Positions 7,327-53,467 of a stretch of 64,000 nucleotides of DNA are shown here, piece by piece; within the stretch, counting starts at the first letter, position 1, and each line of letters starts with the position of its first letter. The stretch covers positions 512-64,511 of the forward strand of contig CALVZA010000001.1 of NCBI GenBank assembly GCA_944372415.1. Reading direction: 5' to 3'. Both the position numbers and the translations under genes were made by a program. Under the pieces are notes generated by a model. The model did not search any database. It saw nothing but the letters and a program-made list of their open reading frames with translations, and was not told the DNA's origin. Origin of the DNA: an uncultured Bacilli bacterium (GTDB taxonomy: Bacteria; Bacillota_I; Bacilli_A; RF39; UBA660).

Positions 7327-7448
7327 AATTAAGTATTATTTTTTATAAATAGTACTTTTATTATAAGTTAGTGTAGAAAAAATATATAAAAAATAGTACA
7401 ATATATATAGTTATTAGCAGTAAATTTTTTAAAGAAAGATGTGTTAAT

Positions 7449-8066
7449 ATGATACCAAATGAAGTTAATATTGTTTTAAAAGATATCTGGCCAATGCTTT
7501 TGTTATTTAGTATAGTATTATTTTTAATAAGAATAACAGATATAATAATTAATAAAAAAAGATTAATATTTTATAAAGATTTATATATTTTTTTATTTAT
7601 TATATATATGTTTTTATTATTTGAATTAGTAACAAGTACTGACTTTGAAAGTTATTCTAATAATTTTATACCGTTTAAAGAAATATCAAGATATAATTAT
7701 ACAAGTTCATTATTTTATAAGAATGTGTTAGGTAATGTATTACTATTCATTCCATTTGGTTATTTTGTTAATACTATATTAAAAAATAAAAAAATAATAA
7801 TATGTATGTTAATTACTACTATAACATCTTTAAGTATAGAACTTATACAAATGAATATAGGTAGAAGTTTTGATATAGACGATATATTATTAAATATATG
7901 TGGTGGAATATTAGGTTATATTATATATAGAATTATAGATTATATAAAAGATAAATTACCATTATATTTAAAAAAAGAATGGATATATAATGTTTTATGG
8001 ATAATTATTTTATTATTTAGTTCATTATTTTTATTAAATTATTATGGTATTTTGGAGGTATTATGA
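7449..8066 (+). CDS. VanZ family membrane protein
   Basis: Multi-TM protein. NFIPFK..., NVLLFIPFGYF, SIELIQ...GRSFDIDDILLNICGGILGY are VanZ-like motifs. Confidence 0.75.
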   Translation: MIPNEVNIVLKDIWPMLLLFSIVLFLIRITDIIINKKRLIFYKDLYIFLFIIYMFLLFELVTSTDFESYSNNFIPFKEISRYNYTSSLFYKNVLGNVLLFIPFGYFVNTILKNKKIIICMLITTITSLSIELIQMNIGRSFDIDDILLNICGGILGYIIYRIIDYIKDKLPLYLKKEWIYNVLWIIILLFSSLFLLNYYGILEVL

Positions 8067-8497
8067 ATACAGAATATGATATTATAGATAACTATGGTTA
8101 TAGTAATTATGAATATTTATATAAAGTTATAGATTATACAATAAAAAAATTAAATATATGTAATAGTGTATTTTGTGTAATATTTATTGATGATGAAGAA
8201 ATGCACAAAATAAATTTAAGTTATAGAGGTATTGATAGAACTACTGATGTATTATCATTTGCGTTAAATGATAATAAACATATTGAAACAGAAGTTAATA
8301 GTTTAGGAGATATTTTTATTTCAATACCAAAAATGATCAGTCAAGCAAAAGACTATAATCATTCTGAAAAAAGAGAATTATCATTTTTAACAGTTCATGG
8401 TTTATTACATTTATTAGGCTATGATCATATGAACAAAAGTGATGAAGAAATAATGTTTAACTTACAAAAAGAAATACTTGATGAACTAGGAATATAA
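8063..8497 (+). CDS. ybeY: rRNA maturation endoribonuclease YbeY
   Basis: HGLLHLLGYDH zinc motif, TDVLSF motif, 144 aa. Confidence 0.95.
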   Translation: MNTEYDIIDNYGYSNYEYLYKVIDYTIKKLNICNSVFCVIFIDDEEMHKINLSYRGIDRTTDVLSFALNDNKHIETEVNSLGDIFISIPKMISQAKDYNHSEKRELSFLTVHGLLHLLGYDHMNKSDEEIMFNLQKEILDELGI

Positions 8498-8508
8498 GAG
8501 GTGGAAAA

Positions 8509-8901
8509 ATGTATAAAAAATTGTGTGATTTAATAAACAACAGCTATTCAAATATTAGTGGATATAAAGTGGCATGTATCGTAAAAATGAAAGACGGAAA
8601 ATATTTTAATGGAGTAAATGTAGAAAATGCTTCGTTTAAAGATGGGCTTTGTGCAGAACAAGTAGCAATTGGAAGTGCTATAACAGAAGGGTATACAAAA
8701 GATAGTTTTGATAAACTTTATCTACTCGGGAGTAGTAAACACCCAATAACACCATGTTTTCTATGTAGACAACTGCTAGTAGAGTTTTTCTCTAAAGATG
8801 CTGAAATAATAACTTACGACCAAACAGGAGAATATACAAAATATAAAATTAAAGACTTGTGTCCATACTCATTTAAAAGTGGTGATTTATATGATAAGTG
8901 A
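8509..8901 (+). CDS. cdd: cytidine deaminase
   Basis: CAEQVAI (Cys/Glu) and PCFLCRQ (PCxxC) zinc/catalytic motifs, 130 aa. Confidence 0.9.
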   Translation: MYKKLCDLINNSYSNISGYKVACIVKMKDGKYFNGVNVENASFKDGLCAEQVAIGSAITEGYTKDSFDKLYLLGSSKHPITPCFLCRQLLVEFFSKDAEIITYDQTGEYTKYKIKDLCPYSFKSGDLYDK

Positions 8902-9259
8902 ATTAAAAGAACTACTAAAAAATTCTTACTCTCCTTATGATGATAAATGTTTTGCTTGTATTGTCTTAATGAAAGATAATAAAAAATTTAAAGGTGTTAC
9001 TGTAAAAAATGCAACATATAGAGACGGAATATATGCAGAACAAATAGCAATAGCACAAGCAGTAACAGAGGGTTATAAATATGGAGACTTTGAAAAATTA
9101 TATTTAATGACCAGTTCAGATGAAATAAGTGATTTAAAATATTTAAACGAAAGAGTAATAACAGAATTCTTTGAACCAATGAAAAGTGTTATTTTATATA
9201 CTCATAACGAAGATAATAGAGTTTTAAAAGTAGGAAATTTATATAATAACATATACTAA
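8891..9259 (+). CDS. cytidine-deaminase-like paralog lacking all three zinc-ligand cysteines
   Basis: Colinear with the upstream Cdd, but CAE becomes YAEQIAI and PCxxC becomes LKYLNERV. ATG at 8891 after AGTGGTGA; 11-nt overlap with cdd. Confidence 0.7.
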   Translation: MISELKELLKNSYSPYDDKCFACIVLMKDNKKFKGVTVKNATYRDGIYAEQIAIAQAVTEGYKYGDFEKLYLMTSSDEISDLKYLNERVITEFFEPMKSVILYTHNEDNRVLKVGNLYNNIY

Positions 9260-9271
9260 AGGAGGAAAAAA

Positions 9272-10153
9272 ATGAAGAGTGGATTTGTAAGTATTATAGG
9301 TAGACCTAATACTGGTAAAAGTACACTACTAAATACTATTATAAACAATAAAGTTGCTATAGTTAGTGATGTAGCAGGAACTACTAGAAATTCAATACAC
9401 GGAGTTTATAATGATAAAGATACACAAATAGTATTTGTTGATACTCCAGGTATACATAAACCAGTAGATAAGTTAGGTAGAGAACTTAATAAAGAAGCCT
9501 ATAGTAATTTAGAAGATATAGATTTAATATTATTTACAGTTGATGCCTCAACTGGTATTGGTAAAGGAGATAAATTTATTATTAATGCATTAAAAAATAA
9601 TACTATACCAGTTATATTAATATTAAATAAAATAGACAAATTAAATAATGAAGGTATCATGAATGCTATTAATAGTTATAAAGACCTGTATGATTTTGCA
9701 GAAATTATTCCCGTATCAGCATTAAAAAACGATAATATAGATAGACTTATAAAAGTTATAAAAAATTATATAAATGATAACGTAAAATATTATGATGACG
9801 GAGTTTTAACAAATGCTAGTAAATACTTCTTAGCAAGTGAATTTGTAAGAGAAAAAATATTAGAATTAACTAATGAAGAAGTTCCCCATGCAGTTACTTG
9901 TGTTACAACAAAATATCAAGAAAAATCTAATATAATTACTATTAACATAGATATAATAGTATCTCGTGCATCATTAAAAAAAATAATAATTGGTAAGGGT
10001 GGAAAAATGTTAAAAGAAATAGGCTCACGTGCAAGAGTTGATTTAGAAAACACATTAGGAAAACCAATATATTTAGAATTATATGTAAAAACTATCGAAA
10101 ATTGGCGAGATAAAGAAAAATACTTAAAAGAATTTGGTATAAAAGATGCATAA
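9272..10153 (+). CDS. era: GTPase Era
   Basis: GRPNTGKST (G1), DTPG (G3), NKID (G4), and a C-terminal KH domain (IIGKGGKMLKEIG). Confidence 0.95.
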   Translation: MKSGFVSIIGRPNTGKSTLLNTIINNKVAIVSDVAGTTRNSIHGVYNDKDTQIVFVDTPGIHKPVDKLGRELNKEAYSNLEDIDLILFTVDASTGIGKGDKFIINALKNNTIPVILILNKIDKLNNEGIMNAINSYKDLYDFAEIIPVSALKNDNIDRLIKVIKNYINDNVKYYDDGVLTNASKYFLASEFVREKILELTNEEVPHAVTCVTTKYQEKSNIITINIDIIVSRASLKKIIIGKGGKMLKEIGSRARVDLENTLGKPIYLELYVKTIENWRDKEKYLKEFGIKDA

Positions 10154-10961
10154 AAAAGAAACTTACTTAAAATTTTACATAGATTCTAAAGGTAATATAG
10201 ATTTAATAAATAAATTTATAAAAAAAGAAAATATTACACTAAATGAATTTAATGATGTAGTAACAGATTACTTAAAAGAATTAGAAAAAGCAAAAAAAAA
10301 TAAAGATAAAGTAAATAAACTTTATTTAGAATATTGTTTAAAGTATGGAAAAAATATAAATAAAGAAAATAAAAAAATTAGCAAAAGAAAAGAAACAGAA
10401 ACTATTATTAACATAATTAATAACTATATAAAAGAAGATAAACATAATATAAAAGAATATGTGTCACTTAGTAACATAACTTATACCGACTTTAAAAAAT
10501 TTATAAATAACTATAAAAATTATTATTTAAATAATATAGAAAAAGATATACTAAAAGAATTTTTTAAAAGAGAAAATAACTTTAATAAAGATAACTTAGA
10601 AAAAGTAACTAAAGTTGTAGATAAAATAAGTGATGACTTAGTAAATGATAAACCATTTGATATATATAATTACTATGTTGAACTGGGTTGGGATTCTAAA
10701 TTGCTTATATATTATTTAAATAATAATAAAGATAAATTTTCTAACTTTGTTATTGATAACGTAAAACTATATCTAAAAAAATATAACTTTAACGATAAAA
10801 AATATAAATTAAATGAATTTATAACTTATATAAAAGATAATGATAAAAATATAACAACTAACCAAATAGAAACTATAATAAACTATATGAACGAAAATAA
10901 AATGCCATATAATTATTACTTATTTAAAAGTATAAAAAAAATATTAAATAATAATGAATAA
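10146..10961 (+). CDS. hypothetical Lys/Asn-rich soluble protein
   Basis: 271 aa ORF overlapping the era stop. No TM segment or motif recognised. No counterpart in the B. subtilis era-yqzL-recO block. Confidence 0.4.
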   Translation: MHKKETYLKFYIDSKGNIDLINKFIKKENITLNEFNDVVTDYLKELEKAKKNKDKVNKLYLEYCLKYGKNINKENKKISKRKETETIINIINNYIKEDKHNIKEYVSLSNITYTDFKKFINNYKNYYLNNIEKDILKEFFKRENNFNKDNLEKVTKVVDKISDDLVNDKPFDIYNYYVELGWDSKLLIYYLNNNKDKFSNFVIDNVKLYLKKYNFNDKKYKLNEFITYIKDNDKNITTNQIETIINYMNENKMPYNYYLFKSIKKILNNNE

Positions 10962-11013
10962 AAGAAATTTTTTAATACCATTATATCTATGAGAATAAGA
11001 AAGGGTGTTAAAA

Positions 11014-11091
11014 ATGACAAAAAAAGAATTATGGGAATTATTTAAAAAAACTGGTAAAATAGAATATTATTTAGAATATAAAAAGAAATGA
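11014..11091 (+). CDS. yqzL: YqzL-like micro-protein (25 aa)
   Basis: Not in the ORF track. MTKKELWELFKKTGKIEYYLEYKKK behind AAGGGTG. Resembles the YqzL family (..W.LF..TG.I..YL..K) and sits at the conserved era/recO position. Confidence 0.6.
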   Translation: MTKKELWELFKKTGKIEYYLEYKKK

Positions 11092-11243
11092 AAAAAATGT
11101 AATTCAAGAATTAATTAGATAAATAGTAATAAAACACATGAAAAATATTATTAATTCAGTAATGTTATGGTAAAAAGCAATTAAAAATATAGTATAATAT
11201 GTATAGATTTTATTTACAAGTATAAAGAAGGGGGGATGAATAG

Positions 11244-12098
11244 ATGAAAGAAAATTCCGATAAATATTCTAGTAAAAATTTTGAAGATATAAAAAATATT
11301 GATGATTATGGAAATGAATATTGGTTTGCAAGAGATTTGCAAAAAGTATTAGAATATAAAGATTGGAGAAATTTTAAAAAAGTTATTGATAAGGCGATTA
11401 TATCTGCAAATAATAGTATTTCTAATAAAGAAGATTGGCTTGTTGAGGTTAACAAGCCAATAAAAACTGGAAAAGGCAAAGAAGAAATTATTAAAGATTA
11501 TAAACTTTCAAGATATATATGCTATTTAATAGTACAAAATGCAGATCCTAGTAAAGAAGTTGTAGCCTTAGGACAAACATATTTTGCTATACAAACAAGA
11601 AAACAAGAGGTAACAGAACAAGAATATGATTCCTTATCAGATGATGAAAAAAGATTTTATCAAAGAAAATTAACTAGATATGGTAATTATACTTTACAAA
11701 AGATTGCTTCTTCTGCTGGTGTTAAAAATATGGCTGAATTTCATAATGCTGGGTATAAAGGATTATATAATGGTGAAACTGCTGATGATATTTTTAAAAG
11801 AAAAGAATTGCGTTATAGAGAAGACATTCTAGATAATATGAATGAAGATGAATTGGTTGCTAATTTATTTAGAATAAATCAAACTAAACAAAAATTAATA
11901 AAAGATAATATAAAAGGTGAAAAAGAAGCAAAAGATGTACATTACGAAGTTGGCAAAAAGGTGAGATGTGCAATTGCAGATATTGGTGGAACGATGCCAG
12001 AAGATATGCCAACTCCAAAGAAAAGTTTAAAAGAACTTGAACGAGACAAAAAACAATTAGAAAATAAAGCAAAAAAACTATTAGAAGAAGTTAAATAA
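11244..12098 (+). CDS. dinD: DNA-damage-inducible protein D
   Basis: Near full-length colinearity with E. coli DinD: YWFARDLQKVLEYKDWRNF, LSRYICYLIVQNADPSKEVVALGQTYFAIQTRKQE, GGTMPEDMPTP. Confidence 0.85.
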   Translation: MKENSDKYSSKNFEDIKNIDDYGNEYWFARDLQKVLEYKDWRNFKKVIDKAIISANNSISNKEDWLVEVNKPIKTGKGKEEIIKDYKLSRYICYLIVQNADPSKEVVALGQTYFAIQTRKQEVTEQEYDSLSDDEKRFYQRKLTRYGNYTLQKIASSAGVKNMAEFHNAGYKGLYNGETADDIFKRKELRYREDILDNMNEDELVANLFRINQTKQKLIKDNIKGEKEAKDVHYEVGKKVRCAIADIGGTMPEDMPTPKKSLKELERDKKQLENKAKKLLEEVK

Positions 12099-12110
12099 TA
12101 ATAAAAAGAA

Positions 12111-12851
12111 GTGATTAAATTGATAGAAGTAGAAGGTTTTATATTAAATGAAATATCATATGGTGATACTTCTAAAATAGTTAATATATTTACTAATAAA
12201 GGTGTCATAGGTTGTATAGCAAAAGGGGCTAAAAGTTTAAAAAGTAATTTAAGGGTTAATACCACAAAATTTACCTATGGTAAATTTTTAATTAATATAA
12301 AAAAAGATAAACTAAGTATATTAACAGAAGTAAGTATAATAAATGAATTAGTTAATATAAAAAAAGATTTATTACTAATTAGTTACTTAAGTTATATAGT
12401 AGAACTTACTAATCAAATAGTAAAACAAACTGATGAATACGAAGAATTATATAATTTATTTATTAATATAATATTAAAATTAAATGATAAATTAAATCCT
12501 AAAGTATTAATTAATATATATGAGATTAAAGTATTAGATTACCTAGGAGTAGGTATTAACTTTAATAGTTGTTCTAAATGTGGAAGTACAAAGAATATAA
12601 TTACTATTAATGGAGATATAGGTGGATATATTTGTTCTAATTGCTATACTAATGAAATAATATATGATTCTAAAACAATTAAAATGTTAAGATTATATTA
12701 TTTAATAGATGTTAGTACAATAAGTGAATTAAAAATAAGTAATAATGTTATAGAAAATATAAATAATTTTATAAACATATATTATGATAGATATACAGGA
12801 TTATATTTAAATAGTAAAAAGTTTTTAAAAGATTTAGATGGAATGTATTGA
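12111..12851 (+). CDS. recO: DNA repair protein RecO
   Basis: OB-fold N-terminus (EGFILNEISYGDTSKIV) and zinc finger CSKCGS...CSNC. Start could instead be TTG at 12120. Confidence 0.85.
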   Translation: MIKLIEVEGFILNEISYGDTSKIVNIFTNKGVIGCIAKGAKSLKSNLRVNTTKFTYGKFLINIKKDKLSILTEVSIINELVNIKKDLLLISYLSYIVELTNQIVKQTDEYEELYNLFINIILKLNDKLNPKVLINIYEIKVLDYLGVGINFNSCSKCGSTKNIITINGDIGGYICSNCYTNEIIYDSKTIKMLRLYYLIDVSTISELKISNNVIENINNFINIYYDRYTGLYLNSKKFLKDLDGMY

Positions 12852-12876: not shown

Positions 12877-12918
12877 TTTATTAAGGTAGAGAGTAATTAT
12901 TTGATAGGAGTTGAAATA

Positions 12919-15159
12919 ATGAGCAGGAAGCATAGAATAATAATAAGCATAACAGGAATATGTATAATAGCACTTATTCTATTAAGTTTAACATATGGTT
13001 ATTACTTAACAAATATAAAAGGAAATACAAATACAAAAAGTATAACTGCATCTACAGCTGATTTAAAATTAGTATATGGAGATGGTAGTGGAACACTTGC
13101 TCCAACTGGTGTAATTCAACCAGGAACTACAATAGGGACTAAAACATTTACAGTAACTAATGACGGAAATAGAACAGTAAGTGATTATGTAGTTGTATTA
13201 GAAAATGTTTATAATGAATTTTCTAGACCAGAAGATATAGTTTATACATTGACATGTACTTCTACAAGTGGAAACTGTAATGGAGTTAGTGAGGAAACTC
13301 AATTTCCAAGCGGTGGTGGTACAATAGATGATGGTGATGGTTTTGGAATAGTAGTAATCAATACAATAGAACCAGATGTAACTCATAACTATACTATAAC
13401 ATTAAAATACTTAGAACCAAATGTAGATCAAAGTGAAGATATGGGTAAAACTGTAACAGGTAAAATAAATATAAAAGATGCTCAAGACATAAATCCATAT
13501 AAGAATCAAGATGGAACATTAGCAAAGGCAATAATAGATAATGCAATAAATGTAACAAATGAAGAAAAAAATAACGGGCATGCAGTATTTAGAACAACAC
13601 CACTTACTAAACCAGCTGAAGAAACTACAATGTATTATAATGAAGGAACACCAGGAAGTGAAACAACAGCAAATTATCAAACAGTAAGAAATCCAACAAC
13701 AAGTTACTATTTTACGTATGGAGATACATTCACATTGTCAGGGTCTAGTCATACTATAAAAAATAATGATGGAAGTGCATTAAAAGCAGTAAAATATTCA
13801 ACTGGATATGCAACATTAAAAGGGAAATATATTGTAAGTTATAGTGGTAGTTCATCATCAACTCCAGTATCAGGCGCTAATAAAAAAACAATATATTATG
13901 TAGTAAATGCTACCTCAACACAACTTACTTATACAACTGTCTCTTCTGGATTAAAGCAAAATGAAAGATATATAACATATGGAGACAGTTATAAATTTAA
14001 TAAGAAAACAGGGAACTATGACATAATAAATAAAAGTGGTAGTGCATTAAAAACAGTAAAATATAAAGATAATATAAGTAAATTAGTAGGTAAATATATA
14101 GTTAGTACATCAGGTTCAACAAGTTCAACCCCAGTATCAGGAACTAATAGAAGCACAATATATCAAGTAACTTCTAACTCAACTGAATCACAAATTAAAT
14201 ATAAATCTATAACAAAATCTTCATCATCTTATAATAGTGCGGAAAATACATTAAGTATAACAAATGATGATTATGGAGTATCATACTACTATAGAGGAGG
14301 AGTAGAAGATAACTATGTAAACTTTGCAGGAATGTGTTGGAGAATAGTAAGAATAGAAGGAGACGGTTCTACAAAAATAATATTAGAAGACCAAGATAGT
14401 ACTTGTGCTACAAGTAATGGTAATTGGGTTATACCAACTACAACAGGAGGTACTACTAAAAAAGGAAATTTTGGGTTTACACAATATGCAGCAAATACAT
14501 TAACTGCAAGTGATGGTACAAAAAATTCAAGTACAAGATATTTAATGAACTATTTAAATGGTGGAACAAATAACGATAAATCAATGTCAACAGCATTTAA
14601 GAATTTTCAAACAGGGCCTTTATCAAGTTACTTATCTTATTTAAAAGCAGGAGACTGGTGCTTAAATGATAAAGCTTATGCAACCGGAAGAGATAATACA
14701 ACACCATTAAGTAATCAAGAAATGTTAGATAAACAAATTAAGGGTACAACGTTCTATTATGATTCATATGTTCGTTTAGATGGAAAAACACCAAAAGAAC
14801 CAACATTAAAATGTAATGGAACAAATATGAGTAAGTTTGCAGATAATATAGACATGTATGTAGGAACATTAACAGCAGACGAAATAGTATATGCAGGAGG
14901 AAAAGTATCTACTAGCAATTCAAATTTTTATTTAATAAATGATTATCAAAAATCAAATAGTTTATCCTTTTGGTCTTTGTCGCCTTACTACTTCTTCAGC
15001 AGCCACGATTACGCATTCTACGTGGACTTCAATGGGAATTTGAACGACATCAATGTGGGCTACGGCTACAACTCGTTCCGTCCCGCAGTTTTTCTGAAAT
15101 CTAATGTTCAAATAACTGGTGGAGATGGAACAAAGGCAAATGCCTACACAATAGGATAA
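12919..15159 (+). CDS. secreted 746-aa protein: TasA/camelysin-like N-terminal module with SipW-type signal, two ~87-aa tandem repeats, and a C-terminal lectin-like domain with a putative DGR variable region
   Basis: ATG at 12919 after TAGGAG; the ORF-track start at 12838 lies inside recO and its terminator. Signal/anchor ...ALILLSLTYGYY, then STADLKLVYG...IQPGTTIGTKTFTVTNDG. Repeats at 13705-13947 and 13966-14220. C-terminal CWRIVRIEG...FWSLSPYY...FRPAVFL. Confidence 0.65.
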   Translation: MSRKHRIIISITGICIIALILLSLTYGYYLTNIKGNTNTKSITASTADLKLVYGDGSGTLAPTGVIQPGTTIGTKTFTVTNDGNRTVSDYVVVLENVYNEFSRPEDIVYTLTCTSTSGNCNGVSEETQFPSGGGTIDDGDGFGIVVINTIEPDVTHNYTITLKYLEPNVDQSEDMGKTVTGKINIKDAQDINPYKNQDGTLAKAIIDNAINVTNEEKNNGHAVFRTTPLTKPAEETTMYYNEGTPGSETTANYQTVRNPTTSYYFTYGDTFTLSGSSHTIKNNDGSALKAVKYSTGYATLKGKYIVSYSGSSSSTPVSGANKKTIYYVVNATSTQLTYTTVSSGLKQNERYITYGDSYKFNKKTGNYDIINKSGSALKTVKYKDNISKLVGKYIVSTSGSTSSTPVSGTNRSTIYQVTSNSTESQIKYKSITKSSSSYNSAENTLSITNDDYGVSYYYRGGVEDNYVNFAGMCWRIVRIEGDGSTKIILEDQDSTCATSNGNWVIPTTTGGTTKKGNFGFTQYAANTLTASDGTKNSSTRYLMNYLNGGTNNDKSMSTAFKNFQTGPLSSYLSYLKAGDWCLNDKAYATGRDNTTPLSNQEMLDKQIKGTTFYYDSYVRLDGKTPKEPTLKCNGTNMSKFADNIDMYVGTLTADEIVYAGGKVSTSNSNFYLINDYQKSNSLSFWSLSPYYFFSSHDYAFYVDFNGNLNDINVGYGYNSFRPAVFLKSNVQITGGDGTKANAYTIG
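14977..15096 (+). other. adenine-depleted, NNC-codon block inside the CDS (candidate DGR variable region)
   Basis: About 50% GC and 25 A per 120 nt in an AT-rich gene. 22 of 40 codons are NNC and the intervening codons are A-free. Confidence 0.5.
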
Positions 15160-15166
15160 AAATAAA

Positions 15167-15189
15167 GATAAGAATTTTTAATTCTTATC
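15167..15189. other. perfect 10-bp hairpin (possible terminator of the 746-aa gene)
   Basis: gataagaatt/aattcttatc with a 3-nt loop. The A/T-rich flank is upstream rather than downstream on the + strand. Confidence 0.4.
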
Positions 15190-15215
15190 GTCCATGAACT
15201 GAAAACTGATTAGTT

Positions 15216-15241
15216 ATCCAGCGAAAACCCTTTCGCTGGAT
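15216..15241. other. GC-rich perfect 11-bp hairpin with a 4-nt loop
   Basis: atccagcgaaa-ACCC-tttcgctggat. Flanked by ATGAACT direct repeats (15194-15200 and 15240-15246). Confidence 0.4.
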
Positions 15242-15308
15242 GAACTATAAAATACGTTAAAACAGTATTAGCGTAAGCGAGAATATATAAATAATAAAAA
15301 AAAGAAGA

Positions 15309-15332
15309 CAAATGCATCGTTAGATGCATTTG
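15309..15332. other. perfect 10-bp hairpin with a 4-nt loop, preceded by an A run (reads as a minus-strand terminator)
   Basis: caaatgcatc-GTTA-gatgcatttg. An A-rich tract at 15291-15308 gives a T run on the minus strand. Confidence 0.4.
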
Positions 15333-15383
15333 CGGATTTTATGAAAAATTTATGTTATAACTTTAAATTAAATAGGTGATAGT

Positions 15384-44804: not shown

Positions 44805-45512
44805 ATGAGTACAAAACAAAAATTAACTTTAGGAATTGCAGCTATATTTATGGTTACATTAACAATAGTAGGAGTTACATATGCGTACTTTGTAACAAGA
44901 GTAACAGGAGAAACAACAGAATCAATTAATATTAGTACAGCAAATGTTGGTTCAGTTGAATACCAACCAGGAAATGGAAGTAGTGATGTAGTGACACTTG
45001 CTGATGTGTTACCAGGAACAACTTTATATAAAAGTTTTAAAGTTCATAACACTTCAGAAGATACAGCATCAAACTTTAGTATTTTTATGACATCAACACC
45101 TACTGCAAGTACACCTCAATTTGTTCATGCTAAAGATGACTCTGGTTGTTATGTAAGTACTGTAAAGCCTTCAAACGATGGAGAGGCAACAGCAACATGT
45201 TTTGATGGCACAGCTTACAATAATGTTTATGTAACATTATATGAAGTTGATGATACTGAATTTGCTACTGTTCAAAATGATGGTACAATAACAAGTCCTG
45301 ATGTTTTAACAGATGTTATTACTGCTGAAACACGTGTTGCAGCAATTGCTGGCACAGGAACAACTCAAGCTACTCAGGATTTAAAAACTGACATTAGTAT
45401 TGATGGTAATGCTACTAAGTATTATGTTTTAAAAGTTGAGTATAAAAATACTGGTTCTAACCAAAATATTGAAAATGATGCTGCTTTGTCTTTAAAAGCA
45501 AGTATTAAATAA
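44805..45512 (+). CDS. TasA/camelysin-like secreted protein with SipW-type signal peptide (235 aa)
   Basis: ...TLTIVGVTYAYF signal; then ISTANVGSVEY, LADVLPGTTLYKSFKVHNTSEDTA, FVTLYEVDD, YYVLKVEYKNTGSNQN...LSLKASIK. Perfect AGGAGGA SD. Layout parallels B. subtilis TasA. Confidence 0.6.
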   Translation: MSTKQKLTLGIAAIFMVTLTIVGVTYAYFVTRVTGETTESINISTANVGSVEYQPGNGSSDVVTLADVLPGTTLYKSFKVHNTSEDTASNFSIFMTSTPTASTPQFVHAKDDSGCYVSTVKPSNDGEATATCFDGTAYNNVYVTLYEVDDTEFATVQNDGTITSPDVLTDVITAETRVAAIAGTGTTQATQDLKTDISIDGNATKYYVLKVEYKNTGSNQNIENDAALSLKASIK

Positions 45513-52657: not shown

Positions 52658-53467
52658 ATGAAATCAGAAAATAATGGAAAGATTGCAATAGCTGTAGTAG
52701 CAATGTTTGTTGTTGCATTATCAATAGTAGGATTTACTTATGCATACTTTACTGCACAAGTACAAGGTAATACTGCTGATAAGAGTGTTGAGGTTACAGC
52801 AGGAAGGTTAGAAATAGTTTATGCTAATGGTAATGAAATATTAGCACAAAATATTGTGCCTGGATGGGTTAGTAACGGAGATTATTATTTTGATACTGTA
52901 TGTTCAAGTACTGATGAAAACGAAGATGGTATTTATGAAATCAAAGCTGTTTCAAAATCTGCTATAGCAGAAGCTAAAAATAAATGTTCAGAAACAGATC
53001 AAAGAACACCAGCAACTCTTAGTCCAACAACAGCAGATGGACTTACTGATAAAGTAACATTTTCTGTAAGTAATTCAGCAGAAAATACTGCTGATAACAG
53101 TTATATTATTAGATTAACAAATATTACTAATGGACTAGCTGAAGCAGATAGAAAAAATTTCTTTGTTACATTATATGATGGAGAAGATGCTGTAGTTTGG
53201 AGTGGTAATTTAGCTGCTTCTGGAACTCAAGTTATTGTACCAGCTGCTAGAACTATTGCAGATGATGATGAAACACAAAATTATTCTATTTCTTTAACTT
53301 ATAAAAACATTGAGGGTGCACAATCTAGTAAAGGTGTTGGAGTTAAAGCTACAGTAGAAGTAATTGGTGTTGTTGAAAATGACGATTCTGAGTGGGTTGA
53401 TGCAGATGGAAGAACTATAACTTTTGCAAGTCCTAATACTAACGAACCTACTAATGGTTTAAGTTAA
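52658..53467 (+). CDS. TasA/camelysin-like secreted protein with SipW-type signal peptide (269 aa)
   Basis: ...ALSIVGFTYAYF signal; VEVTAGRLEIVY, NIVPGW, FVTLYDGED, YSISLTYKNIEGAQSS...VKATVEVIG. Leader and RBS identical to the gene at 44805. Confidence 0.6.
   Translation: MKSENNGKIAIAVVAMFVVALSIVGFTYAYFTAQVQGNTADKSVEVTAGRLEIVYANGNEILAQNIVPGWVSNGDYYFDTVCSSTDENEDGIYEIKAVSKSAIAEAKNKCSETDQRTPATLSPTTADGLTDKVTFSVSNSAENTADNSYIIRLTNITNGLAEADRKNFFVTLYDGEDAVVWSGNLAASGTQVIVPAARTIADDDETQNYSISLTYKNIEGAQSSKGVGVKATVEVIGVVENDDSEWVDADGRTITFASPNTNEPTNGLS

What the first reader, a model, noticed from the sequence alone, without database searches (positions are those of the whole stretch)
14977..15096. Adenine-depleted NNC-codon island at the C-terminus of the 746-aa TasA-like protein: signature of a DGR variable region, with no RT or template repeat in the window
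Seen: codons 14977-15096 (LSPYYFFSSHDYAFYVDFNGNLNDINVGYGYNSFRPAVFL) break sharply from the rest of the gene. GC is about 50% (55/111 by hand count over 14980-15090) and there are only 25 A in 120 nt, against a roughly one-quarter-GC, A-rich background. 22 of 40 codons are NNC (TAC x6, TTC x5, AGC x2, GAC x2, AAC x2, GGC x2, CAC, ATC, CCC), where this genome normally uses TAT/TTT/AGT/GAT/AAT/GGT. The interspersed codons are adenine-free (TTG TCG CCT GTG GGG TTG GTG TCG CGT CCC GTT TTT CTG), where TTA/TCA/CCA/GTA/GGA/AGA are the norm. Usage returns to normal at 15097. Established: diversity-generating retroelements rewrite a variable region (VR) from a template repeat (TR) by adenine-specific mutagenesis. 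TRs concentrate A in AAC codons, giving NNC codons in the VR, and keep scaffold codons A-free. VRs sit at the C-terminal end of C-type-lectin/FGE-like folds that commonly end in an xFR(P/C/L)(V/A) motif; here it is NSFRPAV. Inference: this is a DGR target VR displayed on a secreted TasA-like protein, a combination I do not know to be described. It would be a remote or orphaned target, because no RT, Avd or matching TR occurs in these 64 kb.
Basis: partly seen in the sequence, partly recalled or inferred. Interest (0 to 1): 0.85.

Follow-up and report, generated by a model that had tools for sequence, protein, structure and literature searches.

The report
Orphaned DGR variable region
The odd GC-rich, adenine-poor stretch at the end of this surface-protein gene was written by a diversity-generating retroelement, a known bacterial system that rewrites a protein's binding tip, but the rewriting machinery that sits next to this gene in related bacteria has been lost at this locus.

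Summary
Window 14977-15096 is the most GC-rich 120 nt of the 64 kb (48% against 23%). It holds 25 A, and 22 of 40 codons are NNC, against 5.5% in the rest of the gene.

In relatives (L018/L022, L021, L012, L013) the same gene is followed by a MutS-domain-I protein (Msl), a template repeat (TR), Avd and a reverse transcriptase.

The window's variable region (VR) differs from those foreign TRs at 18-20 of 43-44 TR adenines. It differs at only 3-4 of about 70 other bases.

Across homologs, variability is confined to the TR Asn codons.

The carrier domain is DUF6273/C-lectin-like, a known DGR target fold. The N-terminus is weakly TasA-like.

The window holds no RT, Avd, Msl or TR. Homology to cassette-bearing loci stops at the Msl start codon. 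The syntenic locus of a related genome holds a decayed cassette.

So this is a VR orphaned at its locus.

It is a new member of a known kind, of moderate interest.

The parts
12916..15159 (+). DGR target gene, 746 aa (= P0001); the ATG at 12838 is an upstream alternative start that overlaps recO
   Evidence: more than 1000 homologs
12925..13017 (+). N-terminal signal/TM helix (residues 4-34); its DNA resembles the N-termini of two paralogs in the window (44840, 52699)
   Evidence: AF2 helix 4-34; repeat family D1
13069..13479 (+). Beta-sandwich domain, tentatively TasA/camelysin-like
   Evidence: AF2 pLDDT 74; top PDB hit is the TasA fibre 8aur, E 4e-3, TM 0.34. No Pfam hit on this protein. 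The paralog at 44805-45512 hits Peptidase_M73 at the threshold
13762..14236 (+). Internal tandem duplication of two ~75-aa units in the stalk region, absent from most homologs
   Evidence: seen in the translation; no DNA homology to L018/L022/L024 in this stretch
14230..15156 (+). C-terminal DUF6273-like (C-lectin-like) domain that carries the VR
   Evidence: AF2 pLDDT 90.1, pTM 0.89. Foldseek hits: 9qa6 DUF6273 N-terminal domain, E 4e-4; phage DUF6273 proteins. The Pfam DUF6273 hit on the L018 homolog is sub-threshold
14969..15095 (+). Variable region (VR): the stretch homologous to relatives' template repeats; the reported island 14977-15096 lies inside it
   Evidence: model residues 250-289 form beta-strands with pLDDT above 90
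15160..15349 (+). Conserved intergenic leader, 86-89% identical to cassette-bearing loci and more conserved than synonymous sites (73-79%); strongly structured
   Evidence: RNA fold z = -7.5; no Rfam family
15167..15189 (+). AT-rich 10-bp hairpin directly after the stop codon
   Evidence: conserved in L022, L021, L012 and L009
15216..15241 (.). 11-bp stem with 4-nt loop: ATCCAGCGAAA-ACCC-TTTCGCTGGAT. Candidate cis element of the DGR target; not terminator-like
   Evidence: Identical in window, L022, L021 and L012; L024 has one stem change, C-G to T-G, still paired. L013 has a different stem at the same distance after the stop, with 7 of 11 pairs changed on both sides and all still paired
15309..15332 (.). 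10-bp stem with 4-nt loop, terminator-like on both strands, just before the place where Msl starts in relatives
15349..15355 (.). Breakpoint: homology to cassette-bearing loci ends at the position of the Msl start codon. 35 nt further on, an unrelated D-Ala-D-Ala carboxypeptidase gene begins (15384)

Best explanation
Shown: the island is the variable region (VR) of a diversity-generating retroelement (DGR) target. Its composition is the imprint of copying from a template repeat (TR). In the TR, adenines are concentrated in AAC/AAT codons, which gives NNC codons after adenine-specific mutagenesis by the RT. The scaffold codons are kept adenine-free, which gives TTG, TCG, CCT, CGT, CCC and similar codons in a 23% GC genome.

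Shown: the VR sits on a beta-hairpin region at the C-terminal end of a DUF6273/C-lectin-like domain of a secreted protein. That protein's N-terminus is possibly TasA-like.

Shown: in relatives the gene is the first gene of a compact unit. The order is target, 190-nt structured leader, Msl (MutS domain I), TR, Avd, RT, large serine recombinase. This unit is about 7.4 kb and is 94% identical in unrelated genomic flanks, so it is mobile.

Shown: at this locus everything from the Msl start codon onward is absent.

Inferred: the cassette was lost here. The positional ortholog in a related genome still carries an Msl pseudogene and a decayed TR.

Inferred, about 60:40: the VR is now a frozen relic, or is rewritten only rarely, rather than a currently diversifying remote target.
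For: Composition.

Cassettes next to homologs: L012, L018, L022/L023 and L021, L013, L025.

A-specific TR/VR mismatches, including window VR against foreign TRs: (p=2e-7 and 4e-6).

Reversed codon-position conservation. In the VR, third positions are 89-92% identical and first/second positions 57-78%. In the flanks the values are 73-79% and 86-89% (a slightly wider VR window gives the same reversal).

Family variability. Column entropy is 3.13 bits at the 19 TR-Asn columns, against 1.13 at other VR columns and 1.20 in the flanks. 96.6% of residues at those columns are reachable from AAC. Pairs 90-95% identical outside the VR are only 43% identical inside it.

Fold: with the literature.

Cassette loss: homology ends at the Msl ATG. 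The syntenic era-recO locus L024 holds an Msl pseudogene and a TR remnant. L009 has a larger deletion. L021 and L025 have a 789-nt deletion inside the RT gene.

Stasis: within ten 90%-identity clusters, 7 of 273 variable columns fall in the VR once one recombinant cluster is set aside. L012's VR is one codon longer than its adjacent TR. The window's VR is one codon longer than all three TRs it was compared with (L022, L021, L012).
Against: No TR or RT was found for this genome, so the DGR origin rests on homology, not on a cognate pair.

Against the 'frozen' part:
- The rest of the genome could not be searched. The window's VR was not returned by the genome-contig scan although the pattern matches it.
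- VR third positions and the leader are more conserved between the two cassette-less loci (92% and 86%) than flanking synonymous sites (73%). This argues for recent or continuing TR copying.
- The covarying hairpin is intact.
- The mobile unit's TRs fit orphan VRs in other genomes as well as they fit their own VRs.
- RT-bearing contigs are nearly all short. Actively varying copies may therefore be under-represented among the long contigs that show stasis.
Confidence: 0.6

Rival explanations
1. The origin is the same, but the VR is still an active remote target. A DGR unit elsewhere in the genome, for example a mobile Msl-TR-Avd-RT-recombinase unit of the L022 type, supplies cDNA in trans. That cDNA homes into this VR using the retained 3' homology and the downstream hairpin.
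For: Remote targets more than 100 kb away are documented for non-phage DGRs. The unit is mobile and 94% identical between unrelated flanks. Its TRs match orphan VRs of the window, L024 and L001 with only 1-5 non-A mismatches in about 70 sites. VR third positions and the leader are conserved beyond the neutral expectation. The hairpin is retained and covaries. Several paralogs occur per genome.
Against: The window VR is 3 nt longer than every TR it was compared with (L022, L021, L012) and has 3-4 non-A mismatches to the two closest. Paralogs within one genome differ in VR length and scaffold, so one TR cannot serve them all. VRs are static within 90% clusters. Cassettes are repeatedly found decayed.
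Confidence: 0.33
2. No DGR was ever at this locus in this lineage. The C-terminal half plus leader (14242-15349) was acquired by homologous recombination or gene conversion from a DGR unit's target gene or from a paralog. It brought in a VR that had been written elsewhere.
For: The gene is a mosaic. Only 12928-13561 in patches and 14242-15349 are homologous to relatives; the middle is unrelated. A VR swap between paralog clusters is seen in P0197.
Against: The positional ortholog L024, with era-recO synteny, carries cassette remnants directly after the same leader. This points to a cassette at this locus in the common ancestor. In either case the VR is still DGR-written.
Confidence: 0.05
3. 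The island is not DGR-related. It is a tract from a GC-richer donor, or codon bias or chance in a Tyr/Asn/Asp/Phe-rich loop.
For: None, beyond the absence of a TR and RT in the window.
Against: Mismatches to relatives' TRs are adenine-specific. The codon-position pattern is reversed only inside the VR. The scaffold codons are identical to those of TR-linked VRs. It is the single strongest compositional outlier in 64 kb.
Confidence: 0.02

Closest known systems
[quoted passage not shown]
   Same: Both are cellular gut-bacterial DGRs with a C-terminal VR on a ligand-binding domain of a surface-organelle-type protein. Both have Avd plus Msl accessory proteins. Both units are horizontally mobile, and some elements are tightly controlled.
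   Different: The host is an uncultured low-GC Bacilli lineage. The carrier is a possibly TasA-like N-terminal domain plus a DUF6273-like tip, not a Type V pilin. Mobility is apparently through a single large serine recombinase in a ~7.4-kb unit rather than an ICE. At the window locus the cassette is absent.
DGR 'Architecture D' (MSL-containing DGRs; Wu et al. 2018, PMC5758913)
   Same: A small MutS-domain-I protein (123 aa; Pfam MutS_I E 5e-11) occurs together with Avd and without HRDC. That paper also describes non-adjacent and remote targets, defined by A-to-N-only differences.
   Different: The gene order here is target-Msl-TR-Avd-RT-recombinase. It was not checked whether the reference set of 16 MSL DGRs includes this family. 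The window itself has none of the cassette genes.
DUF6273 DGR targets of gut phages (tentaclins and Mtd-like proteins, PMC10743442; Toutatisvirus hotspot, bioRxiv 10.1101/2024.10.15.618418)
   Same: The fold is DUF6273/C-lectin-like, with the VR forming a surface beta-hairpin. The second paper notes phages in which the DGR is absent but the target genes remain.
   Different: The context here is chromosomal (era-recO-target-dacA), not a phage tail module. No relative of the cassette was found in IMG/VR beyond 28-31% RT identity. The Pfam DUF6273 model does not reach its threshold.
BPP-1 Mtd target-site hairpin/cruciform (Guo et al. 2011, PMC3240598)
   Same: A stem-loop with a 4-nt loop lies downstream of the VR. 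Its stem varies in sequence but keeps pairing: 7 of 11 compensatory pairs between window-type and L013-type.
   Different: The loop is ACCC/ACCT, not GRNA. The stem is 11 bp. It lies about 120-127 nt from the VR end (57 nt after the stop codon in the window, about 60 nt in L013), against 4-34 bp in BPP-1-type elements. Its function here is untested.

Membership tests
Diversity-generating retroelement (as a complete system at this locus) | Reverse transcriptase of DGR type (RVT_1 with I/LGxxxSQ and YxDD) | tested here: not met
   No RT anywhere in the 64 kb; the best tblastn E-value was 1.8. It is present next to homologs: L018 RT, RVT_1 E 6e-18, with IGNMTSQ and YMDD in the translation. That the SQ motif is the DGR hallmark is my own knowledge, not tested here.
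Diversity-generating retroelement (as a complete system at this locus) | Template repeat matching the VR, with differences only at TR adenines | tested here: not met
   No copy in the window.
DGR variable region (target side only) | Differences from a family TR concentrated at TR adenines | tested here: met
   Window VR against TR of L021: 20/44 A sites and 3/69 non-A sites mismatched, p=1.7e-7. Against TR of L022: 18/43 and 4/70, p=4e-6. There is one 3-nt length difference. These are foreign TRs, so this is a proxy test.
DGR variable region (target side only) | Hypervariability among homologs confined to TR-adenine codons | tested here: met
   3.13 bits at TR-Asn columns, against 1.13 and 1.20 elsewhere; 96.6% NNC-reachable residues. 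VR identity is 43% in pairs 90-95% identical outside it. Variability was NOT seen within 90% clusters.
DGR variable region (target side only) | VR at the C-terminal end of a C-type-lectin-type fold | tested here: inconclusive
DGR variable region (target side only) | Accessory protein Avd nearby | tested here: not met
   Absent from the window. Present in relatives: bAvd E 2e-9, NCBIfam Avd E 5e-7, both below their curated cut-offs.
Pfam DUF6273 (PF19789) | HMM match at the gathering score | tested here: not met
   No hit on the window protein at E<=0.01. The L018 homolog scores 21.2 bits against a cut-off of 23.5.
Pfam DUF6273 (PF19789) | Fold similarity to DUF6273 domains | tested here: met
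   9qa6 (DUF6273 N-terminal domain of the T. ramosa IgA peptidase) E 4e-4, prob 1.0. Phage DUF6273 proteins E 7e-4 and weaker. TM-scores are only 0.36-0.42.
TasA/camelysin (Peptidase_M73, PF12389) | HMM match | tested here: not met
   No Pfam or NCBIfam hit for the target. The paralog at 44805-45512 scores 22.6 bits against a cut-off of 22.5, over its N-terminal 85 residues only.
TasA/camelysin (Peptidase_M73, PF12389) | TasA-like beta-sandwich fold | tested here: inconclusive
   The model has pLDDT 74. The top PDB hit is the TasA fibre 8aur, E 4e-3, prob 1.0, TM 0.34.
TasA/camelysin (Peptidase_M73, PF12389) | SipW-type signal peptidase in the neighbourhood | tested here: inconclusive
   None was recognised among the ORFs scanned. 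Most of the window's ORFs were not scanned.
BPP-1-type DGR target hairpin/cruciform | GC-rich 7-10 bp stem, 4-nt loop, stem structure conserved rather than stem sequence | tested here: met
   11-bp stem (6 G-C pairs), 4-nt loop, 7 of 11 compensatory pairs against L013.
BPP-1-type DGR target hairpin/cruciform | Loop consensus GRNA and 4-34 bp distance from the VR | tested here: not met
   The loop is ACCC/ACCT. The hairpin lies about 120-127 nt from the VR end.

The most novel reading that the evidence does not exclude
A large family (more than 1000 clusters) of possibly TasA-like surface or fibre proteins in uncultured gut Bacilli has lectin-like tips written by a small serine-recombinase-borne DGR unit. 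The unit moves between genomes, diversifies its own target and perhaps resident orphan VRs in trans, and then decays. It leaves several frozen, mutually different paralogs per genome ('hit-and-run' diversification). A covarying 11-bp hairpin about 60 nt past the stop codon would be its target-recognition element, a variant of the BPP-1 cruciform with a different loop and spacing.
Probability: 0.3. Interest if true: 0.6.

Novelty: new member of a known kind. Interest (0 to 1): 0.42.

Why it matters
It shows that a DGR variable region can be recognised from raw composition alone, even when the retroelement is gone. That matters because DGR finders start from the RT and miss such targets.

The family also offers a tractable case of how DGR targets outlive their diversifier. 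Decay stages are visible side by side: intact unit, RT deletion, Msl pseudogene with TR remnant, clean loss.

It suggests a Gram-positive counterpart to the pilus-tip diversification recently shown in Bacteroides.

None of this changes the known DGR mechanism.

Tried and rejected
- Exact look-ups of the window protein in the contig index failed three times, and for P0085 as well. The source genome could therefore not be explored.
- The cluster look-up gave no accession numbers, so RT hits could not be linked to the same genome.
- A viral scan with the 3' anchor TCGNTCCGTCCCGCAGT returned only chance hits in high-GC contigs. A TR-specific viral pattern found nothing. RT relatives in IMG/VR are only 28-31% identical. 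There is therefore no evidence that the unit is phage-borne.
- The single genome-contig scan found one relative (L018) but not the window's own VR. The genome is therefore not in that collection.
- Rfam found nothing in the leader or in the whole window, and there are no tRNAs.
- A profile search of PDB sequences found nothing.
- An AAC-rich stretch at 13581 turned out to be ACA Thr codons read out of frame.
- The other GC peaks (40615, 56162, 45096, 24076) do not match it: each is lower in GC, and the three whose sequence was read (40615, 56162, 45096) show none of its pattern of repeated TAC/TTC/AAC/GAC codons. They were not tested further.
- MAFFT put the L013 hairpin out of structural register, so pairs were counted by script instead.
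Full report
OBSERVATION

It has 25 A, 33 C, 25 G and 37 T, which is 48.3% GC. The window as a whole is 23.3% GC and 44% A. 22 of 40 codons are NNC, against 39 of 713 (5.5%) in the rest of the gene.

The 120-nt stretch starting at 14966 is the most GC-rich in all 64 kb. Its z-scores are +3.9 for GC and -3.5 for A. The other GC peaks (40615, 56162, 45096, 24076) are each lower in GC, and the three whose sequence I read (40615, 56162, 45096) show none of its pattern of repeated TAC/TTC/AAC/GAC codons. I did not test them further.

The gene runs 12916-15159 and encodes 746 aa, identical to database protein P0001. Its neighbours are housekeeping genes. Era, a DinD-like protein and RecO lie upstream. 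A D-Ala-D-Ala carboxypeptidase, Pta and a Fic protein lie downstream.

NO TR OR RT IN THE WINDOW

Four searches found no second copy of the island:
- a repeat search;
- a scan of both strands that tolerates mismatches only where the candidate has A;
- a pattern search allowing 3 mismatches;
- an AAC-codon density scan.

tblastn with the cassette proteins of a relative (Msl, Avd, RT, serine recombinase) gave nothing better than E = 0.44.

WHAT RELATIVES SHOW

The protein has more than 1000 homologs in gut-type metagenomes and MAGs. Their C-terminal tails are nearly invariant on both sides of a stretch of about 36-38 residues that differs in almost every sequence.

A short metagenome contig (L012) first showed a second copy of that stretch. 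It lies 730 nt downstream of the gene and is AAC-rich. It differs from the gene copy at 19 of its 43 adenines and at none of 75 other bases.

One pattern scan of GTDB species representatives returned a single MAG of an uncultured Bacilli bacterium (L018). Contig look-ups gave the same unit in other samples (L022, L023) and in a second context (L021, L025). The order of the unit is:
- target gene;
- a 190-nt leader;
- a 123-aa MutS-domain-I protein (Pfam MutS_I, E 5e-11);
- the TR;
- Avd (bAvd E 2e-9; NCBIfam DGR Avd E 5e-7, both below their curated cut-offs);
- a 370-aa RT (RVT_1 E 6e-18, containing IGNMTSQ and YMDD);
- a 511-aa large serine recombinase.

L013 has a TR, Avd and the start of an RT, without Msl.

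L021 and L022 are 94% identical over about 7.4 kb, inside unrelated flanking genes. The whole unit is therefore mobile.

THE WINDOW'S ISLAND IS THE SAME VR

Window 14242-15349 is 84% identical to L018/L022 and 82.5% identical to L021. The table gives mismatch counts against TRs.

| VR | TR | TR-A sites mismatched | Other sites mismatched | Note |
|---|---|---|---|---|
| window 14974-15089 | L021 | 20 of 44 | 3 of 69 | Fisher p = 1.7e-7; one extra codon |
| window 14974-15089 | L022 | 18 of 43 | 4 of 70 | Fisher p = 4e-6; one extra codon |
| L022 (own adjacent VR) | L022 | 18 of 43 | 2 of 70 | |
| L021 (own adjacent VR) | L021 | 25 of 44 | 3 of 69 | |

The window's VR fits these foreign TRs as well as their own adjacent VRs do.

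Codon-position conservation is reversed inside the VR. Between the window and L024, L022 or L021, third positions are 89-92% identical and first and second positions 57-78%. In the flanking coding sequence, third positions are 73-79% identical and first and second positions 86-89%. A slightly wider VR window gives the same reversal. This is what AAC-templated mutagenesis predicts, and it is the opposite of ordinary purifying selection.

Across 46 distinct homolog VRs of TR length, column entropy is as follows:
- 3.13 bits at the 19 columns where the L018 TR encodes Asn;
- 1.13 bits at the other 17 VR columns;
- 1.20 bits in the flanks.

96.6% of residues at the Asn columns are reachable from AAC by changing A only. 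Protein pairs that are 90-95% identical outside the VR are on average 43% identical inside it.

The 'GC-richer donor tract' and 'chance' readings are therefore rejected.

THE CARRIER PROTEIN

An AlphaFold2 model of the last 309 residues is confident (pLDDT 90.1, pTM 0.89). The VR corresponds to model residues 250-289, which form beta-strands with pLDDT above 90.

The only PDB match with E below 0.001 is the N-terminal DUF6273 domain of the Thomasclavelia ramosa IgA peptidase. In the viral structure library the matches are DUF6273 proteins of gut phages, with some DUF1566 proteins. TM-scores are modest (0.36-0.42). The Pfam DUF6273 model stays below its threshold. I therefore call the domain DUF6273-like rather than a member.

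Published work describes DUF6273 as C-lectin-like and as a DGR target in gut phages.

The N-terminal 235 residues model less well (pLDDT 74). They form a long signal/TM helix followed by a beta-sandwich. The top PDB hit is the TasA fibre 8aur (E 4e-3, TM 0.34). A paralog in the window (44805-45512) reaches the camelysin/TasA Pfam model just at threshold. 'TasA-like' is thus plausible but weak.

No paper in the searchable library mentions DGRs together with TasA or camelysin.

WHY THE CASSETTE IS MISSING

Homology between the window and the cassette-bearing loci runs through the whole 190-nt leader. It stops within a few bases of the Msl start codon (15349-15355). 35 nt later the unrelated carboxypeptidase gene begins.

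Locus L024 is the positional ortholog. Its ybeY-cdd-era-...-recO region matches window 7448-12829 at 77-81%. After the same leader it carries:
- the first ~116 nt of Msl, with an in-frame stop;
- then a decayed TR fused to a sequence that looks like the tail of a target gene.

L009 has a larger deletion, which also removes part of the leader. L021 and L025 have a 789-nt deletion inside the RT gene.

Cassette decay is therefore recurrent in this family. The window represents the clean-loss end of the series. Import of the C-terminal half by recombination remains a minor alternative. The gene is a mosaic, and one VR swap between paralogs was seen.

FROZEN OR STILL SERVED IN TRANS?

This could not be settled. 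The window's genome is not in the searchable genome collection, and the exact-protein index does not hold it.

For 'frozen':
- In ten 90%-identity clusters with 3-10 full-length members of the same length each, the VR is invariant in seven clusters, although 6-45 other columns vary. Setting aside one recombinant cluster, 7 of 273 variable columns fall in the VR, which makes up about 6% of the length.
- The window's VR is one codon longer than each of the three TRs it was compared with (L022, L021, L012). L012's VR is one codon longer than its own adjacent TR.
- Paralogs that share a contig differ in VR length and scaffold.

For 'still served':
- VR third positions (92%) and the leader (86%) are more conserved between the two cassette-less loci than flanking synonymous sites (73%; Fisher p = 0.007).
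- The mobile unit's TRs fit orphan VRs in the window, L024 and L001 with 1-5 non-A mismatches.
- RT homologs lie almost exclusively on short contigs. Actively varying copies may therefore be missing from the long contigs that show stasis.

I put it at about 60:40 for frozen or rarely rewritten.

A CONSERVED HAIRPIN

The leader folds far better than shuffles (z = -7.5). It contains ATCCAGCGAAA-ACCC-TTTCGCTGGAT at 15216-15241. This sequence is identical in the window, L022, L021 and L012, and L024 differs by one stem change that still pairs, although the L012 protein is only 48% identical to the window's.

The distant L013 has, about 60 nt after its stop codon against 57 nt in the window, TGTCACGTGAA-ACCT-TTCACGTGACA. 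7 of 11 pairs are changed on both sides and all remain paired. No T-run follows it, and the terminator scan did not flag it.

It resembles the BPP-1 target hairpin in form: a 4-nt loop, with stem structure conserved rather than stem sequence. It does not meet the GRNA loop consensus or the 4-34 bp distance from the VR. Its role is inferred, not shown.

COMPARISON WITH WHAT IS KNOWN

- Msl plus Avd DGRs are 'Architecture D' of Wu et al. 2018. That paper also documents remote targets.
- Bacteroides DGRs with Avd and Msl diversify pilus tip adhesins and move horizontally.
- DUF6273 targets are described in gut phages, including targets that persist where the DGR is absent.

The mechanism and most components are therefore known. 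Three things are new here:
- the host lineage;
- the possibly TasA-like carrier;
- the compact recombinase-borne unit with visible decay stages.

VERDICT

It is a new member of a known kind, of moderate interest (0.42).

Noticed in passing
L024:12141-12460: At the locus syntenic with the window (era-recO-target), the DGR cassette survives as an Msl pseudogene (~116 nt, in-frame stop) followed by a decayed TR. The TR is fused to a sequence encoding a target-gene tail (SFRPAVFLKSGAQITS...*). This would fit a TR x VR recombination that deleted Avd and the RT.
   Followed up: partly
L021:13562-14171 and L025:9562-10171: The RT gene of the otherwise 94%-identical unit carries a 789-nt internal deletion, leaving a 127-aa stub. 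The adjacent VR is invariant in all 8 same-length cluster members from different samples.
   Followed up: partly
L022:9167-16589 vs L021:9174-15969: A ~7.4-kb unit (upstream region with a small ORF, target, Msl, TR, Avd, RT, large serine recombinase) is 94% identical between two contigs with unrelated flanking genes. This looks like a small integrative element carrying a DGR. Its ends and att sites were not mapped.
   Followed up: partly
window 15216-15241; L013:2849-2874: An 11-bp stem with a 4-nt loop lies 57 nt after the target's stop codon in the window and about 60 nt after it in L013. The two stem sequences are entirely different but fully compensatory (7 of 11 pairs). There is no T-run and no Rfam family.
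   Followed up: partly
window 44805-45512 and 52658-53467: Two shorter paralogs share the target's N-terminal signal/TM region (repeat family D1). One reaches the camelysin/TasA Pfam model at threshold. Neither has a DUF6273-like end or a VR-like island. No SipW-type peptidase was recognised nearby.
   Followed up: partly
proteins P0197 vs P0067 cluster (no window coordinates): One member of a 90% cluster carries the complete VR of a different paralog cluster. This indicates VR exchange between paralogs by recombination or gene conversion.
   Followed up: no
homolog table: Several paralogs share the same longest-contig length (241727, 406766, 473480, 527276). Single genomes therefore carry 2-4 family members, and these differ in VR length (33-62 residues) and scaffold.
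   Followed up: no
RT homolog table: RT homologs sit almost only on contigs of 1-15 kb, while target homologs sit on contigs of up to 500 kb. Some RTs are fused to a MutS_I domain (~510 aa). The short contigs may reflect assembly breaks at TR/VR repeats or at variable VRs.
   Followed up: no
window 13762-14236: The target gene contains an internal tandem duplication of a ~75-aa unit (YxTYGD...SGSALKxVKY...GKYIVSxSGSxSSTPVSG...TIY). This duplication is absent from most homologs, which makes the protein about 100 aa longer than its relatives.
   Followed up: no
window 11244-12098: A DinD-like (DNA-damage-inducible protein D, Bro-N domain) gene lies between the era operon and recO. It is absent from the syntenic L024 locus, which instead has three other genes, one with a DUF2357 domain, between recO and the target.
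   Followed up: no
L012:632-752 vs L012:1458-1575: The adjacent TR and VR differ in length by one codon within the (AAC)n run, with no non-A mismatch. Either the RT slipped on the AAC repeat or an indel has arisen since the last homing event.
   Followed up: no
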